DNA of 64,000 nucleotides from Phyllobates terribilis (Eukaryota): assembly GCF_046119375.1 (NCBI RefSeq), contig NW_027362764.1:707606001-707670000 (forward strand), given 5' to 3'. Each line of letters opens with the position of its first letter. Within the stretch, counting starts at the first letter, position 1. The position numbers were made by a program. Below are positions 34,201 through 40,200 of this stretch, in pieces.

Positions 34201-37200
34201 AGGAAGAATTAATTGAATTTCAGGTATTTGTGGATTGTGGTTCAACTCTGAATGTGATTGATGGGGGATTCTTGGAAAAACTTAATTTAAAACCCAAACC
34301 TTTATCATCCCCTATTGCCGTGGTTTCTGTCGATGGCTCTCCCTTGAAATGTGTTACTCACAAGGTTTATGAATTTCCCCTCACTATTAATGGTATTCAC
34401 CAAGAAAATTTGGATTTGGTGGTATTAAATAATTTGCCTTCTCCAGTAGTTTTGGGGTTGCCCTGGTTAAAATTGCACAATCCTGTACTGGATTGGTCTA
34501 CCAATGAAATGAAGTAAAATAAACAATAAAGACCAAGCTCAACTATGGACAAGACGGGTGCCAGGAATACAACAAATGCATCCGTGTAAATAAAGATTCC
34601 GGCACACCAAATAATATGGAAAAAGTCTCATATAGGTAATGAAATAATAGATGCTTTATTTCTCCAACATAAACTGGTTCATATAGTAGTCAGTATACAG
34701 TTGCCTGCCCAACGTTTCAACCCCAACGGGGTTTTCCTCAGGGGCATCAAAGGAGCTTCAAAACCAGAAAATAAACAAAATAAAGACATAAGTGTGACAC
34801 AAAATAAAAGACGATACAATGAGTAATATACAACAAAATAGGCATATGTGAACGGAGCAAGACAAGGGGGAAAGAAAGGGAGTAGGGGGGGGGAGAAAAG
34901 AGAAGGGGGGGGAATCGGGGAGAACAATGGGAGTAAAAGGAAGGGGGAACAATGTGCATACAGAACAAACGAACGGATTGATGTAGAAATAAAAAGGAAA
35001 AGGATACCTAGTTGCTATGCGCTGATTAATATCTGGGAGAAAATCCCAGTGGTAGTGGAGAAACTCAGGGGAAAATAAAGAGAACCAGTCTTGGTAGTGG
35101 TAAGGGAAAACAGGGGATCAGCCGGCAAAATAGCTGTAAACAGACGGCAAAGGGAAAATGAGACACCAGTAGTCAGAATAAAACCAGTATCCAAACACAA
35201 GAGATGACTTGCCTTAAGTGAGGGAAGGTCAAAAATGCAGAAGTCTGAGGGAATAGCCAAGGAGACCTGCCTGCGGGGTAAGGTAGGTAGACCTGAGGGT
35301 AAAGAAAGGGGGTAAAAACTGGAGACTATGGGGACATATGGGATGCCACGCATAGAGGGCTCTTACCTATATGTGGAAATGGAGCAAAAGTCCGGCCGTT
35401 GGTGGTGTAGTATCTAGAGCGTTGGCGGTATTATAAGTGCTGTGAGGCTTCCTGCTTCCGGAGCGCGGGGACGCAACTTCCGGTTAGGTGGAACGCAACA
35501 TCCGGTGGCGTGGAACGCATAAACGCGCATGCGCGCGGTCAAAAGGGAGAGAAATACAGGAAGGAATGAAGGCACAGCGGCGCGTGCGCGGGATATGAAT
35601 AAAGGAGCAGGGAACCTCAAAGAGGAAATAAGAGACAGGGGGAGCAGAGGCACCAAAAGAATGGGGGTAAAAATTGGATAAGGGGGAGGAGAAAAAAGGG
35701 AAGAAAAGACCAAAAATAGGTAAAGAAAAGGGGCAAAACAGAGGAATAAAAGTAAAAATTAAAGTAATAAATGATAAGAGGGGAAGGCAGGGAAGACATA
35801 CACAATAAGGATATGACGGTATCTGTAGGGAGAGAGAAAGGGGGAGGGGGGAATGGATGTATAGAATAATAGAAATGTATATATATAGCAATGTGAAAGG
35901 AAAACAGGGGAAATACATGTTATACAAAGTGCATGTCACATAACATCTGCAATATAATAAATGATCCGGTGCAATATGAAAATTATTATATACAGTGACA
36001 AAAAGGATATATCCGGTTCAAATATGTAGGGTCTGTGAAAGAAGTAAAAATATAATATAAGAAATACAGACAAAGCGAAAATCATGGGCAATAAGTAAAA
36101 TTAAACCTATCTACCTGTATAAACCTCGGGAAGAGCAAAGGAACCACATTGGTAAGATAATAAAAGAGAAGGTATCTCAAACGTGAACCTCATATTCTCG
36201 GTTGAGGCCATGAGGTTCCAATGTCTGAAGGGTAAAGATCCAGAATGCCTCCCTTTCTTTGAGCCTCTGGATCCTATTGCCCCCTCTTCTGCCCGGTGGA
36301 ACGTGGTCTATCACCTGGTAGCGTAATTGAGCAATAGAGTGATGATGGGCAAGGAAATGGTTAGGGATTGGTAATAAATTATATTTGCATCGAATAGTGG
36401 ATTTATGTTTGCTAATCCTATCTCTGATATGCTGTGTTGTTTCCCCCACATATCCTAGGCCGCATGGACACTTGATCAAATATACTACGAATGAGGAGTC
36501 ACAAGTGAAATAGCCCTTGATCGGGAACCTCTTGCCTGTCAGAGGGTGTGTAAATGAACTACCTCGGGTAATGTTAGAACATTGACGGCAGCCTAGGCAT
36601 GGGAAATTGCCTGAGGGTGGTGTCGATAATGTCGTCTGGTGTGTCCTTGGGTTAGAACTCCCAATGTCGGCCCGTACAAGTTTGTTCTTAAGGTTAAGAG
36701 GTCTTTTGTTACATACCATGACTGGCTCCTGAAAGTCCGGGATCTTGGGGTATGAATTGCTCAGTATTGGCCAATGAGTCCTAAGTATATCACGGATAAG
36801 GGTCTGGTACGGATGGTAGGTGTTAACAAAAGTCATGCGGTTTGTCTTGGGTGTCCGTTGTCGGGGGATAAGTGGTGGAAAAGCTATGGGAGGTGGGTAG
36901 CCTCTGTTGACAAATTTTTTTCCGATTTCCAAGTGTCGTAAGGTGCGTGAAGATGGATCCGAAACAATTCTACTGACCCTGGTGTCACAACACACCAGGG
37001 TCAGTAGAATTGTTTCGGATCCATCTTCACGCACCTTACGACACTTGGAAATCGGAAAAAAATTTGTCAACAGAGGCTACCCACCTCCCATAGCTTTTCC
37101 ACCACTTATCCCCCGACAACGGACACCCAAGACAAACCGCATGACTTTTGTTAACACCTACCATCCCTACCAGACCCTTATCCGTGATATACTTAGGACT

Positions 37201-40200
37201 CATTGGCCAATACTGAGCAATTCATACCCCAAGATCCCGGACTTTCAGGAGCCAGTCATGGTATGTAACAAAAGACCTCTTAACCTTAAGAACAAACTTG
37301 TACGGGCCGACATTGGGAGTTCTAACCCAAGGACACACCAGACGACATTATCGACACCACCCTCAGGCAATTTCCCATGCCTAGGCTGCCGTCAATGTTC
37401 TAACATTACCCGAGGTAGTTCATTTACACACCCTCTGACAGGCAAGAGGTTCCCGATCAAGGGCTATTTCACTTGTGACTCCTCATTCGTAGTATATTTG
37501 ATCAAGTGTCCATGCGGCCTAGGATATGTGGGGGAAACAACACAGCATATCAGAGATAGGATTAGCAAACATAAATCCACTATTCGATGCAAATATAATT
37601 TATTACCAATCCCTAACCATTTCCTTGCCCATCATCACTCTATTGCTCAATTACGCTACCAGGTGATAGACCACGTTCCACCGGGCAGAAGAGGGGGCAA
37701 TAGGATCCAGAGGCTCAAAGAAAGGGAGGCATTCTGGATCTTTACCCTTCAGACATTGGAACCTCATGGCCTCAACCGAGAATATGAGGTTCACGTTTGA
37801 GATACCTTCTCTTTTATTATCTTACCAATGTGGTTCCTTTGCTCTTCCCGAGGTTTATACAGGTAGATAGGTTTAATTTTACTTATTGCCCATGATTTTC
37901 GCTTTGTCTGTATTTCTTATATTATATTTTTACTTCTTTCACAGACCCTACATATTTGAACCGGATATATCCTTTTTGTCACTGTATATAATAATTTTCA
38001 TATTGCACCGGATCATTTATTATATTGCAGATGTTATGTGACATGCACTTTGTATAACATGTATTTCCCCTGTTTTCCTTTCACATTGCTATATATATAC
38101 ATTTCTATTATTCTATACATCCATTCCCCCCTCCCCCTTTCTCTCTCCCTACAGATACCGTCATATCCTTATTGTGTATGTCTTCCCTGCCTTCCCCTCT
38201 TATCATTTATTACTTTAATTTTTACTTTTATTCCTCTGTTTTGCCCCTTTTCTTTACCTATTTTTGGTCTTTTCTTCCCTTTTTTCTCCTCCCCCTTATC
38301 CAATTTTTACCCCCATTCTTTTGGTGCCTCTGCTCCCCCTGTCTCTTATTTCCTCTTTGAGGTTCCCTGCTCCTTTATTCATATCCCGCGCACGCGCCGC
38401 TGTGCCTTCATTCCTTCCTGTATTTCTCTCCCTTTTGACCGCGCGCATGCGCGTTTATGCGTTCCACGCCACCGGATGTTGCGTTCCACCTAACCGGAAG
38501 TTGCGTCCCCGCGCTCCGGAAGCAGGAAGCTTCACAGCACTTATAATACCGCCAACGCTCTAGATACTACACCACCAACGGCCGGACTTTTGCTCCATTT
38601 CCACATATAGGTAAGAGCCCTCTATGCGTGGCATCCCATATGTCCCCATAGTCTCCAGTTTTTACCCCCTTTCTTTACCCTCAGGTCTACCTACCTTACC
38701 CCGCAGGCAGGTCTCCTTGGCTATTCCCTCAGACTTCTGCATTTTTGACCTTCCCTCACTTAAGGCAAGTCATCTCTTGTGTTTGGATACTGGTTTTATT
38801 CTGACTACTGGTGTCTCATTTTCCCTTTGCCGTCTGTTTACAGCTATTTTGCCGGCTGATCCCCTGTTTTCCCTTACCACTACCAAGACTGGTTCTCTTT
38901 ATTTTCCCCTGAGTTTCTCCACTACCACTGGGATTTTCTCCCAGATATTAATCAGCGCGTAGCAACTAGGTATCCTTTTCCTTTTTATTTCTACATCAAT
39001 CCGTTCGTTTGTTCTGTATGCACATTGTTCCCCCTTCCTTTTACTCCCATTGTTCTCCCCGATTCCCCCCCCTTCTCTTTTCTCCCCCCCCCCCTACTCC
39101 CTTTCTTTCCCCCTTGTCTTGCTCCGTTCACATATGCCTATTTTGTTGTATATTACTCATTGTATCGTCTTTTATTTTGTGTCACACTTATGTCTTTATT
39201 TTGTTTATTTTCTGGTTTTGAAGCTCCTTTGATGCCCCTGAGGAAAACCCCGTTGGGGTTGAAACGTTGGGCAGGCAACTGTATACTGACTACTATATGA
39301 ACCAGTTTATGTTGGAGAAATAAAGCATCTATTATTTCATTACCTATATGAGACTTTTTCCATATTATTTGGTGTGCCGGAATCTTTATTTATACCAATG
39401 AAATGAAGTCCTGGAGCCCTAAGTGTTATGACAAGTGTTGTAACGGGCGCATTGCTGCTGTGGATAAAGGGGAATTACCTGTACCTATTCAGGATTTTTG
39501 GAAAGTTTTTTCTGAGGAGGAGTCGCAAATTTTGCCTCCCCATAGAGACTACGATTGTACCAATTTGTCCCTGGAGCGACTCTTCCTAAAAGTCGTTTAT
39601 TTAATCTGACTATTCCTGAGAGAAAGGCTTTGGAGGAATACATACAGACGAGCTTGGCCGCCGGTCATATCAGACCCTCTAAGTCACCTGTGGCGGTTGG
39701 ATTTTTTTTTGTTAAAAAAAAGGACGGCGGTTTACGTCCTTGTTTGGACTTTCGCGAGATTAATAAAATTACTGTACGCAATCCTTACTCACTGCCATTG
39801 ATTCCTGATTTGTTTAACCAGTTAGTGGGGGCCAAGTGGTTCTCTAAAATTGATCTCATACAATTTGTTGCGCATGAAGGAGGGTGATGAATGGAAGACT
39901 GCTTTTAACACTCCTGTGGGACCTTCAGAGGGATTTGGATAAGCTGGGTAGGTGGAGCATTAAATGGCAAATGAGGTTTAACGAGGAGAAATGTAAGGTC
40001 ATACATATGGGAAGGAAAAATGGAAGTCACCAGTACTCACTGAATGGGAAATCATTGGGGAATTCAGAGATGGAGAAGGACTTGGGCATCTTGATTGATA
40101 GCAAACTAAATTGGAGTGCCCAAAGTCAGGCCGCTGCTGTAAGGGCAAACAGGGTAATGGGATGTATCAGAAGAGGTATAGCTGCAAAGGATGAGAACAT

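What the first reader, a model, noticed from the sequence alone, without database searches (positions are those of the whole stretch)
34499..39409. 4.8-kb near-perfect palindrome made by a Penelope-like element
Arms of 2399 and 2401 bp surround a 6-nt spacer. I saw only two substitutions and a 9-versus-11 homopolymer difference. Both copies point outward from a shared 5' truncation point, one has 71 extra 3' nt, and a 17-bp TSD flanks the unit in a colinear host. Established: Penelope-like elements often have inverted terminal segments. Here the entire insert is mirrored. Inference: the nascent cDNA folded back and was copied in a single integration event. Persistence of a palindrome this tight is unusual, given cruciform instability.
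Basis: partly seen in the sequence, partly recalled or inferred. Interest (0 to 1): 0.68.

Follow-up and report, generated by a model that had tools for sequence, protein, structure and literature searches.

The report
Mirror-image Penelope-like retroelement insertion
A young, 5'-truncated Penelope-like retroelement sits as two head-to-head mirror copies inside an older gypsy-type element, an arrangement already known for this element class, though its fine detail hints that both cut ends of the target started DNA synthesis.

Summary
Arms 34587-36985 (2399 nt) and 36992-39392 (2401 nt) are inverted copies around a 6-nt spacer. There are 71 extra nt at the left outer end, and a 17-bp target duplication that occurs once in a paralogous empty site.

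Each arm holds the last ~268 codons of a Penelope-like element (PLE) ORF, including the GIY-YIG endonuclease, plus ~1.59 kb of non-coding sequence.

Head-to-head inverted 5'-truncated copies, a one-sided "tail", a TSD and self-priming at the junction are published PLE traits. This is therefore a new member of a known kind.

One new detail emerged. The spacer is element sequence: read on the + strand it encodes S-Q-H, matching relatives (S 88/92, Q 90/92). It belongs to the right copy, while the 71-nt tail is on the left copy. A single cDNA that folded back should own both.

I favour one integration event with priming from both target strands plus a snap-back or jump at the centre. Assembly artefact is unlikely but was not tested with reads. 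Interest is modest.

The parts
34499..34515 (.). Left copy of the 17-bp target-site duplication
   Evidence: Exact direct repeat D4. It is present once at the paralogous empty site 32318-32334.
34516..34586 (-). 71-nt one-sided 3' extension ('tail') of the left copy
   Evidence: It has no partner in the right arm or elsewhere in the window. Its outer end shares an 8-nt motif with the outer end of the right copy. Origin from the element is inferred from the published PLE 'tail' and is not shown here.
34587..36985 (-). Left copy of the 5'-truncated Penelope-like element (2399 nt), 3' end outward
   Evidence: Inverted-repeat alignment.
36177..36985 (-). Retained C-terminal part of the PLE ORF in the left copy (linker + GIY-YIG endonuclease, through the stop codon). 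It is 5'-truncated once, with 0 stops and 0 frameshifts in the retained part.
   Evidence: ORF list. BLASTP 159/266 identical with 0 gaps to P0002 residues 557-822. Pfam GIY-YIG E=0.0016, below the cutoff.
36986..36991 (+). 6-nt 'spacer'. It reads as the native continuation of the right copy: together with base 36985 and the first bases of the right arm it encodes S-Q-H.
   Evidence: Among 92 of 135 relatives that have the downstream motif, S 88/92, Q 90/92 and H 21/92 (F 47, Y 13). The opposite-strand reading C-C-D scores 0/92 at each position.
36992..39392 (+). Right copy of the 5'-truncated Penelope-like element (2401 nt), 3' end outward, without the 71-nt extension
36985..37800 (+). Retained C-terminal part of the PLE ORF in the right copy, including the spacer-encoded residues. 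It is 5'-truncated once, with 0 stops and 0 frameshifts in the retained part.
37801..39392 (+). ~1.59-kb non-coding 3' region of the element (mirror: 34587-36176). It is pyrimidine-rich on the sense strand and contains a 211-bp CpG-rich segment.
   Evidence: Purine fraction 0.315 on the + strand here and 0.684 in the mirror. CpG o/e is 1.39 at 35400-35610. There are no protein matches to relatives and no large internal repeat.
39393..39409 (.). Right copy of the 17-bp target-site duplication
27877..43668 (+). Host: older Ty3/gypsy-type LTR element 'B', the target of the insertion. Its coding region is broken by 3 nested insertions, 1 frame change and 4 stops (counts only).
   Evidence: LTRs 27877-28306 and 43235-43668 are 97.0% identical (9 mismatches, 1 gap). 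The pieces are colinear with the paralogue.
29011..33976 (-). Paralogous, younger element 'A', nested in B. It supplies the empty-site comparison at 32318-32334.
   Evidence: 419-bp LTRs with 0 mismatches. 5-bp flanking repeat. Uninterrupted 1355-aa ORF with gag, protease, RT, RNase H, integrase and chromodomain.

Best explanation
This is one integration event of a 5'-truncated, endonuclease-encoding Penelope-like element (PLE) into the protease region of an older gypsy-type element.

Shown:
- Two outward-pointing copies of the same 2.4-kb 3' portion of the element.
- One 17-bp target duplication.
- A 6-nt centre that is native element sequence of the right copy.
- A 71-nt extension only on the left copy.

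Inferred mechanism:
1. The element's GIY-YIG nuclease nicked both target strands 17 bp apart.
2. The 3' end on the right flank primed reverse transcription at a proximal start site in the element RNA. It copied about 2.4 kb, ending within 36982-36985.
3. The 3' end of that cDNA then paired through 1-5 nt with the same antisense sequence 6 nt back. The partner was either the cDNA itself (snap-back) or a sister cDNA made on the other target strand. DNA-templated synthesis then produced the mirror arm.
4. The left outer end, with its 71-nt tail, was set separately, most simply by the second target 3' end priming at a distal start site 71 nt further along the RNA.
5. Host repair sealed the product.

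The fold-back at the centre is therefore kept, but the event needed both target ends rather than one primer run.
For: Identity:
- 87 relatives at E<=1e-3 among 1031 candidates were found, mostly frog proteins with RVT_1 and GIY-YIG annotations.
- P0002 scans as RVT_1 plus GIY-YIG above the cutoff.
- The arm ORF aligns 60% with 0 gaps to its last 266 residues.
- Invariant Cys, Tyr, His, Glu and Asn columns occur in a 37-sequence alignment.

Single event: the 17-bp repeat flanks the whole unit and is single in the paralogue.

Spacer polarity:
- The + strand reading S-Q-H matches S 88/92, Q 90/92 and H 21/92 (F or Y in 60 more). The opposite reading scores 0/92 at all three positions.
- By my own enumeration, a random 6-mer would give S, Q and H/Y in a given orientation with probability 1/256.
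- The two residues further upstream do not match (L 0/92 where P is 90/92; V 1/92). The right copy's native sequence therefore ends at 36982-36985 and overlaps the left arm by 1-5 nt.

Tail:
- The two outer ends share an 8-nt motif.
- No complementarity is visible between the right target 3' end and the element sequence that follows the proximal end (my reading).

Literature:
- A purified PLE protein cleaves and extends both strands, is predicted to dimerise, and starts reverse transcription at two adjacent internal sites. The sequence between those sites is the genomic 'tail' (PMC11167929: abstract, passages and Main text part 1).
- Inverted 5'-truncated copies with a one-sided tail are typical of PLEs (PMC8557442 passages; PMC3846280 passages).
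Against: - No other copy of the family is in the window, and no eukaryotic DNA collection was open. I therefore could not show that the 71 nt are element sequence, or that the proximal end is a regular 3' terminus.
- The published tail is 30-40 bp, not 71.
- The stem-loop predicted around the proximal end is not better than shuffles (z = -1.1; 29 of 200 shuffles fold at least as well).
- The spacer assignment rests on three codons and on relatives that are only <=64% identical at near-full query coverage (>=94%; partial-coverage hits reach 76%).
- Recombination between the near-identical arms could have flipped a 6-nt centre after insertion. That would restore the simple fold-back model.
- Another published view attributes the tail to endonuclease-mediated resolution of the intermediate rather than to two start sites (PMC8557442).
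- No hammerhead ribozyme or pseudo-LTR, both usual in PLEs, is present in the retained part.
Confidence: 0.5

Rival explanations
1. A single cDNA was primed at the left flank (hence the 71 nt), folded back on itself at about 2.47 kb, and was copied back. The copy ended 71 nt short of the start and was joined to the right flank.
For: - Near-perfect symmetry around a 6-nt centre and one TSD.
- Snap-back 5' junctions are documented for R2-mediated insertions (PMC11371274 passages).
- Self-priming has been proposed for PLE inverted junctions (PMC3846280 passages).
Against: - In this model the loop must be antisense-native on the + strand. That reading (C-C-D) matches 0 of 92 relatives at each position, while the opposite polarity matches S 88/92 and Q 90/92.
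- The stop 71 nt short has no explanation. No microhomology is visible at the right junction (my reading).
- The model survives only if the centre was later flipped by recombination between the arms.
Confidence: 0.2
2. Two complete, independent target-primed cDNAs, one from each target strand, each ran to the same 5' end of a shortened (processed or broken) element RNA. Their 3' ends were joined through a few bases of microhomology, with no snap-back.
For: - Both-strand cleavage and extension occur in vitro (PMC11167929).
- This explains the independent outer ends (one with the tail, one without) and a 1-5 nt overlap at the centre.
Against: - It needs two templates with the same 5' end inside the ORF. 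Nothing in the retained sequence marks that point: the inner 69 nt of the arm fold no better than shuffles (z = +1.67), and Rfam finds no ribozyme.
- From sequence alone it is not separable from the sister-cDNA variant of the best explanation.
Confidence: 0.12
3. Assembly or read artefact: a fold-back chimeric read, or a mis-join, created the mirror image.
For: - Palindromes are a known product of fold-back reads.
- PLE tandem/inverted structures are said to cause assembly problems (PMC8557442).
- The G-run length difference is of a kind that I recall being typical of sequencing error.
- None of 3 ORFs from the arms, two of which cross the centre, is in the protein collection, so there is no independent sighting.
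Against: - Both flanks are colinear with the paralogue and overlap by the 17-bp duplication. A fold-back read would invert one flank and give no TSD.
- The two outer ends are both element 3' ends and differ by 71 nt.
- The arms differ by 3 substitutions.
Confidence: 0.06
4. A later rearrangement of a simple insertion, or the retro-copy of a transcript from a master locus that was already palindromic.
For: Head-to-head PLE loci exist, so a read-through transcript could in principle be mirror-shaped.
Against: - A local duplication-inversion would also duplicate flank sequence and would not leave element 3' ends at both sides inside one TSD.
- A palindromic transcript would have to start exactly at the outer end of the tail.
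Confidence: 0.05

Closest known systems
Inverted-repeat (head-to-head) insertion units of endonuclease-encoding Penelope-like elements, with an optional one-sided 'tail' (Evgen'ev & Arkhipova 2005 and Arkhipova 2006 as cited in PMC8557442; PMC3846280; PMC11167929)
   Same: - 5' truncation.
- An inverted 5'-truncated copy placed head-to-head.
- A variable-length TSD around the whole unit.
- An extension at only one outer end.
- A short overlap or palindrome at the inverted junction, for which self-priming has been proposed.
   Different: - The published typical unit has a full-length or longer copy with pseudo-LTRs and only a short inverted segment. Here both copies are truncated at practically the same point, so the whole 4.9-kb insert is a mirror image.
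- The extension is 71 nt rather than 30-40.
- The non-coding 3' region is ~1.59 kb, against pLTRs of ~180-220 bp in the rotifer examples.
- No hammerhead motif or pseudo-LTR was found.
Snap-back 5' junctions in R2-protein-mediated insertions (PMC11371274, passages)
   Same: [quoted passage not shown] This gives antisense insert sequence joined to the upstream target.
   Different: - That is a different retroelement class, observed with engineered templates in cultured cells.
- A snap-back copy cannot extend beyond the start of its own template, whereas here the arm that does not own the loop is 71 nt longer at its outer end.
L1 twin priming (Ostertag & Kazazian 2001; seen only as a reference entry, mechanism recalled)
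   Same: Both target strands serve as primers in one event, and the product contains an inversion inside one TSD.
   Different: - In twin priming the two cDNAs cover different parts of one RNA, so nothing is duplicated and only one outer end is an element 3' end.
- Here both arms cover the same 2.4 kb and both outer ends are 3' ends.

Membership tests
Penelope-like elements (canonical, C-terminal endonuclease) | C-terminal GIY-YIG endonuclease with an upstream Cys-rich motif | tested here: met
   - Arm ORF: Pfam GIY-YIG E=0.0016, 19.2 bits, below the 22.6 cutoff.
- Its 60%-identical relative P0002 passes at 23.1 bits.
- Invariant C129, C132, C135, Y168, H193, E245 and N261 in a 37-sequence alignment.
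- No solved structure matched by sequence.
Penelope-like elements (canonical, C-terminal endonuclease) | Reverse transcriptase in the same ORF, upstream of the endonuclease | tested here: inconclusive
   - Absent from both copies because of 5' truncation. The 8 relatives match only through their C-terminal parts.
- Present in relatives: RVT_1 in P0002 and P0009 and in most of the 87 hits by precomputed Pfam.
Penelope-like elements (canonical, C-terminal endonuclease) | 5' truncation with a target-site duplication of variable length | tested here: met
   The copies begin at the equivalent of residue ~554-557 of 824. The 17-bp TSD is confirmed against the empty paralogous site.
Penelope-like elements (canonical, C-terminal endonuclease) | Adjacent inverted 5'-truncated copy (head-to-head) | tested here: met
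   compared with the descriptions.
Penelope-like elements (canonical, C-terminal endonuclease) | Short 'tail' extension at one end only | tested here: inconclusive
   A one-sided 71-nt extension is present. It is longer than the published 30-40 bp, and with no second copy of the family available its origin from the element could not be shown.
Penelope-like elements (canonical, C-terminal endonuclease) | Pseudo-LTR from partial tandem arrangement | tested here: not met
   Self-comparison of the long copy finds only one 23-nt repeat. The N-termini of 8 relatives are not found near the 3' end. A truncated copy need not show a pLTR.
Penelope-like elements (canonical, C-terminal endonuclease) | Hammerhead ribozyme motif (usually in the pLTR) | tested here: not met
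   - Rfam at E<=1 over 30000-44000 gives 7 matches. All lie at the palindrome centre, all are below gathering score, and none is a hammerhead.
- A recalled 7-nt core motif has 0 of its 10 window matches inside 34516-39392.
Single-cDNA snap-back insertion | The arm that owns the loop (the primary cDNA) is at least as long at its outer end as the copied arm | tested here: not met
   The loop belongs to the right copy. The left copy is 71 nt longer at its outer end.
L1-type twin-priming inversion | The two segments cover different parts of the template, with only one element 3' end | tested here: not met
   Both arms cover the same 2.4 kb, and both outer ends are 3' ends.
Fold-back read / assembly artefact | One flank inverted, or only one arm joined to the host; no target duplication | tested here: not met
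   Both flanks are colinear with the paralogue and overlap by the 17-bp duplication. Reads were not available, so this was tested on the assembled sequence only.

The most novel reading that the evidence does not exclude
The locus is a natural record of concerted two-ended target-primed reverse transcription by a PLE, with one target strand starting at a proximal site and the other at a distal site 71 nt apart. So far this is known only from a test-tube study of one lizard element. If so, 'which arm owns the spacer' versus 'which arm owns the tail' becomes a simple sequence rule. Read across thousands of existing PLE inserts, it could decide how this element class integrates and why it builds inverted repeats.
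Probability: 0.35. Interest if true: 0.55.

Novelty: new member of a known kind. Interest (0 to 1): 0.3.

Why it matters
How PLEs integrate, and why they build tandem and inverted structures, is stated as unresolved in the papers read here.

This clean, young and fully symmetric insert has three useful properties: a verifiable empty site, a templated centre, and a one-sided tail on the other arm. Together they give a purely descriptive criterion, spacer owner versus tail owner, for separating one-primer fold-back from two-ended priming across genomes.

For annotation, it shows that a 4.9-kb 'palindrome' in a frog-like genome can be an ordinary PLE insertion, and that microRNA-like Rfam hits at its centre are spurious.

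Tried and rejected
- **Rfam scan of 30000-44000 at E<=1.** It returned only sRNA and microRNA models matching the perfect central hairpin, all below gathering score. I rejected these as consequences of the palindrome.
- **Hammerhead search by a recalled core motif.** No match lies in the element.
- **Search for a pLTR, internal repeat or N-terminal coding remnant in the 1.59-kb 3' region.** Nothing was found.
- **Other copies in the window.** None, so no family survey was possible.
- **Intrinsic hairpin at the inner end of the arm (z = +1.67) and a stem-loop at the proximal 3' end (z = -1.1).** Neither is better than shuffles.
- **Sequence searches of solved structures.** Only one weak reverse-transcriptase hit (E=0.004) and no GIY-YIG structure.
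- **Exact look-up of three ORFs from the arms, two of which cross the centre.** None of the 3 is in the collection.
- **A second protein search for closer relatives.** It returned 48 proteins at E<=1e-60 among 309 candidates, the best 64% identical at full coverage. The native sequence at the truncation point is therefore known only from distant relatives.
- **Two papers checked for PLE insert structure.** Neither has a relevant statement. The first reports very short de novo Chlamys insertions (median 128 bp).
- **Collections not used or closed.** The genome-contig scan was not used because it holds only bacteria and archaea. Supplementary files of the papers were not seen; those of PMC11167929 (Figs S1, S2) may bear on tail and start-site claims.

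
Full report
**1. The observation.**

The region 33000-41000 holds one long inverted repeat. A local alignment resolves it into a left arm 34587-36985 (2399 nt), a 6-nt spacer 36986-36991, and a right arm 36992-39392 (2401 nt).

- The arms align as two gapless blocks of 298 nt (0 mismatches) and 2101 nt (3 mismatches). The blocks are separated by a 2-nt length difference in a G run.
Two are in the non-coding part. One lies in the ORF and is synonymous, because the two arm ORFs translate identically.
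- 71 nt (34516-34586) at the outer end of the left arm have no counterpart on the right or elsewhere in the window.
- An exact 17-nt direct repeat flanks the unit, at 34499-34515 and 39393-39409.
- The window has no N.

**2. The host and the empty site.**

The insert lies in a Ty3/gypsy-type LTR element, here called B, at 27877-43668 on the + strand. Its LTRs are 97.0% identical, with 9 mismatches and 1 gap.

B carries three nested insertions:
- A younger relative, A, at 29011-33976 on the minus strand. A has 419-bp LTRs with 0 mismatches, a 5-bp flanking repeat, and an uninterrupted 1355-aa ORF with gag, protease, RT, RNase H, integrase and chromodomain.
- The palindrome.
- An unidentified ~956-bp insert at 39921-40876.

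Apart from these insertions, B's coding pieces show 1 frame change and 4 stops (counts only).

I compared the two flanks of the palindrome separately with A. The left flank ends at 32318 and the right flank starts at 32334, an overlap of exactly 17 bp. In A that stretch occurs once (14 of 17 identical) and runs straight into the right-flank sequence.

The 17-mer is therefore a true target-site duplication, and the host joins both arms. Reads were not available, so the assembly itself remains untested.

**3. What the arms are.**

Each arm carries an open frame of about 268 codons running outward from the centre to a stop, followed by ~1.59 kb without coding similarity.

- The frame scans weakly as GIY-YIG: E=0.0016, 19.2 bits against a cutoff of 22.6.
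- A search among longer proteins gave 87 hits at E<=1e-3 among 1031 candidates. Most have precomputed RT and related domains, and the best identity is 62%.
- P0002 (824 aa) scans as RVT_1 plus GIY-YIG above the cutoff. It aligns to the arm frame over residues 557-822 at 60% identity with no gap.
- A 37-sequence alignment shows invariant Cys, Tyr, His, Glu and Asn columns in the endonuclease part.
- RT followed by a C-terminal GIY-YIG nuclease is the architecture that defines canonical Penelope-like elements (PMC8557442, passages).

Both copies are thus 5'-truncated PLE copies that lack the RT and keep the linker and endonuclease, with no stop or frameshift in the retained part.

The hits that carry a source name are all amphibian, and the best is only ~64% identical at full coverage. 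I do not take the window for human sequence.

**4. The non-coding part.**

The 1.59 kb after the stop codon is 68% pyrimidine on the sense strand. It holds a 211-bp CpG-rich segment with CpG o/e 1.39.

It contains no large internal repeat and no match to the N-termini of 8 relatives. It has no Rfam hammerhead and no match to a recalled hammerhead core motif. A pseudo-LTR and ribozyme, usual in PLEs, are therefore not demonstrable in this copy.

A long unique stretch before the 3' end has a precedent in rotifer Pen1 elements (PMC3846280, passages). Its nature here is unexplained.

**5. The centre.**

Read on the + strand, base 36985, the spacer and the first bases of the right arm encode S-Q-H, followed by T-R-V-S-R-I-V.

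Of the 135 relatives held, 92 have the downstream motif with at least five residues before it. In those 92, the three preceding residues are S in 88, Q in 90, and H in 21 (F in 47, Y in 13). The minus-strand reading, C-C-D, occurs in 0 of 92 at each position.

The neighbouring bases are fixed. By my own enumeration, a random 6-mer would therefore encode S, Q and H or Y in a given orientation with probability 1/4 x 1/32 x 1/2 = 1/256.

The next two residues upstream on the + strand do not fit: L 0/92 where P is 90/92, and V 1/92.

So the spacer is not filler. It is the native continuation of the right copy, whose RNA-templated end lies within 36982-36985. It overlaps the end of the left arm by 1-5 nt. 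In element coordinates the two copies stop 6-10 nt apart.

**6. What that means for the mechanism.**

If one cDNA folds back and primes on itself, the loop and the terminal pairing bases are part of that primary cDNA, and the copied arm can be no longer than its template. By the spacer's polarity the primary cDNA is the right copy, primed from the right flank. Yet the left copy is 71 nt longer at its outer end.

The published in vitro work on a lizard PLE offers the missing piece (PMC11167929):
- The protein cleaves and extends both target strands.
- It is predicted to be a dimer.
- It starts reverse transcription at two adjacent internal sites not homologous to the target.
- The sequence between those two sites corresponds to the genomic 'tail'.

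Three features here fit that picture:
- The two outer ends share an 8-nt motif.
- The right target 3' end shows no complementarity to what follows the proximal end in the longer copy (my reading).
- The 17-bp duplication implies staggered nicks on both strands.

My best reading is one integration event in which both target 3' ends were used, one at a proximal and one at a distal start site. The centre was formed when the 3' end of the right-primed cDNA paired over 1-5 nt with the same antisense sequence 6 nt back, on itself or on a sister cDNA, and was extended on DNA.

The structure, the TSD, the spacer polarity and the tail's side are shown. The order of events and the two start sites are inferred.

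**7. Caveats and rivals.**

- The spacer argument rests on three codons and distant relatives.
- Recombination between the arms could have flipped a 6-nt centre. That would rescue the simple fold-back model (confidence 0.2).
- The tail has also been attributed to endonuclease-mediated resolution (PMC8557442).
- The 71 nt could not be shown to be element sequence, because no second copy is in the window and no eukaryotic DNA collection was open.
- The stem-loop around the proximal end is not significant.
- Two independent full cDNAs ending at a shared RNA 5' end (0.12) cannot be separated by sequence from the sister-cDNA variant.
- An artefact (0.06) is unlikely given colinear flanks, the TSD, the asymmetric ends and three arm differences. 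It was not tested with reads, and an exact look-up of three ORFs from the arms, two of which cross the centre, found none of the 3 in the protein collection.
- A later rearrangement or the retro-copy of a palindromic transcript (0.05) fits the ends poorly.

**8. Comparison with what is known.**

Inverted 5'-truncated copies placed head-to-head, a one-sided 30-40-bp tail, a variable TSD, and palindromes at the inverted junction interpreted as self-priming are all described for PLEs (PMC8557442 and PMC3846280, passages; a curation guide repeats this, PMC8969392, passages).

Snap-back 5' junctions are documented for R2-mediated insertion (PMC11371274, passages).

L1 twin priming also uses both strands. 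I saw it only as a reference entry and recall the mechanism. It does not duplicate sequence, so it is not the same thing.

Three things differ here from the typical published picture:
- The full symmetry: both copies are truncated at practically the same point.
- The longer tail (71 nt rather than 30-40).
- The long non-coding region.

In my three literature searches I found no statement that relates spacer polarity to the side of the tail.

**9. Persistence.**

The arms differ at 3 of 2399 aligned positions (0.13%). B's LTRs differ at 9 of about 430 positions, and A's at 0 of 419. On the same clock the insert is much younger than B.

Survival of the palindrome is therefore not yet a puzzle. 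Gene conversion between the arms could also keep them alike. That long, nearly spacer-less palindromes are deletion-prone is my recollection and was not checked here.

**10. Verdict.**

- The finding is a new member of a known kind, with one small new point (spacer and tail on opposite arms) that turns into a descriptive test of how PLEs integrate.
- Interest is 0.3.

Noticed in passing
window 29011-33976 (- strand): A compact chromodomain-bearing Ty3/gypsy-type element that looks very young. Its 419-bp LTRs have 0 mismatches, it has a 5-bp flanking repeat, and it carries one uninterrupted 1355-aa gag-protease-RT-RNase H-integrase-chromo ORF. It is described only.
   Followed up: yes
window 27877-43668 (+ strand): The host element B is a nest. 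It holds three unrelated insertions (element A, the PLE palindrome, and a ~956-bp insert). Its LTRs are 97.0% identical, and its remaining coding pieces show 1 frame change and 4 stops.
   Followed up: yes
window 39921-40876: An unidentified ~956-bp insert in B. It overlaps a 266-aa ORF (39884-40684) that has no Pfam match at E<=0.01. The B pieces on either side overlap by ~7 bp on the paralogue, which suggests a short target duplication. From memory it resembles the C-terminal end of a CR1-type LINE protein, but this was not tested because the Atlas was unavailable.
   Followed up: partly
window 35400-35610 and its mirror 38367-38577: A 211-bp CpG-rich segment (GC 0.56, CpG o/e 1.39) sits inside the otherwise pyrimidine-rich, CpG-poor non-coding part of the PLE. 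In the palindrome the two copies face outward. It could be the element's promoter region, but this was not tested.
   Followed up: partly
window 36905-37036: Rfam sRNA and microRNA models (STnc400, mir-147, mir-1467 and others) match the palindrome centre at E down to 1e-8, all below their gathering scores. They simply reflect the perfect hairpin.
   Followed up: yes
window 19163-19900: A G-rich minisatellite with units of about 20 and 30 nt, in a region of strong GC skew (+0.32).
   Followed up: no
window 1-300 / 3801-4100 and 48736-49316 / 53635-54215: Two further pairs of long direct repeats. One is 99% identical at 3800 bp spacing. The other is 88-97% identical at ~4899 bp spacing. They look like LTR pairs of other elements, with ORFs of 673, 301 and 348 aa lying between them.
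   Followed up: no
window 12169-12622 and 16645-17340: Tandem arrays with periods of about 150 nt and about 128-136 nt.
   Followed up: no
window 63386-64000, 26987-27301, 24195-24543, 54513-54979: Several short inverted-repeat pairs (arms of 105-163 nt, 84-96% complementary, with small loops) of the kind small foldback or MITE-like elements give.
   Followed up: no
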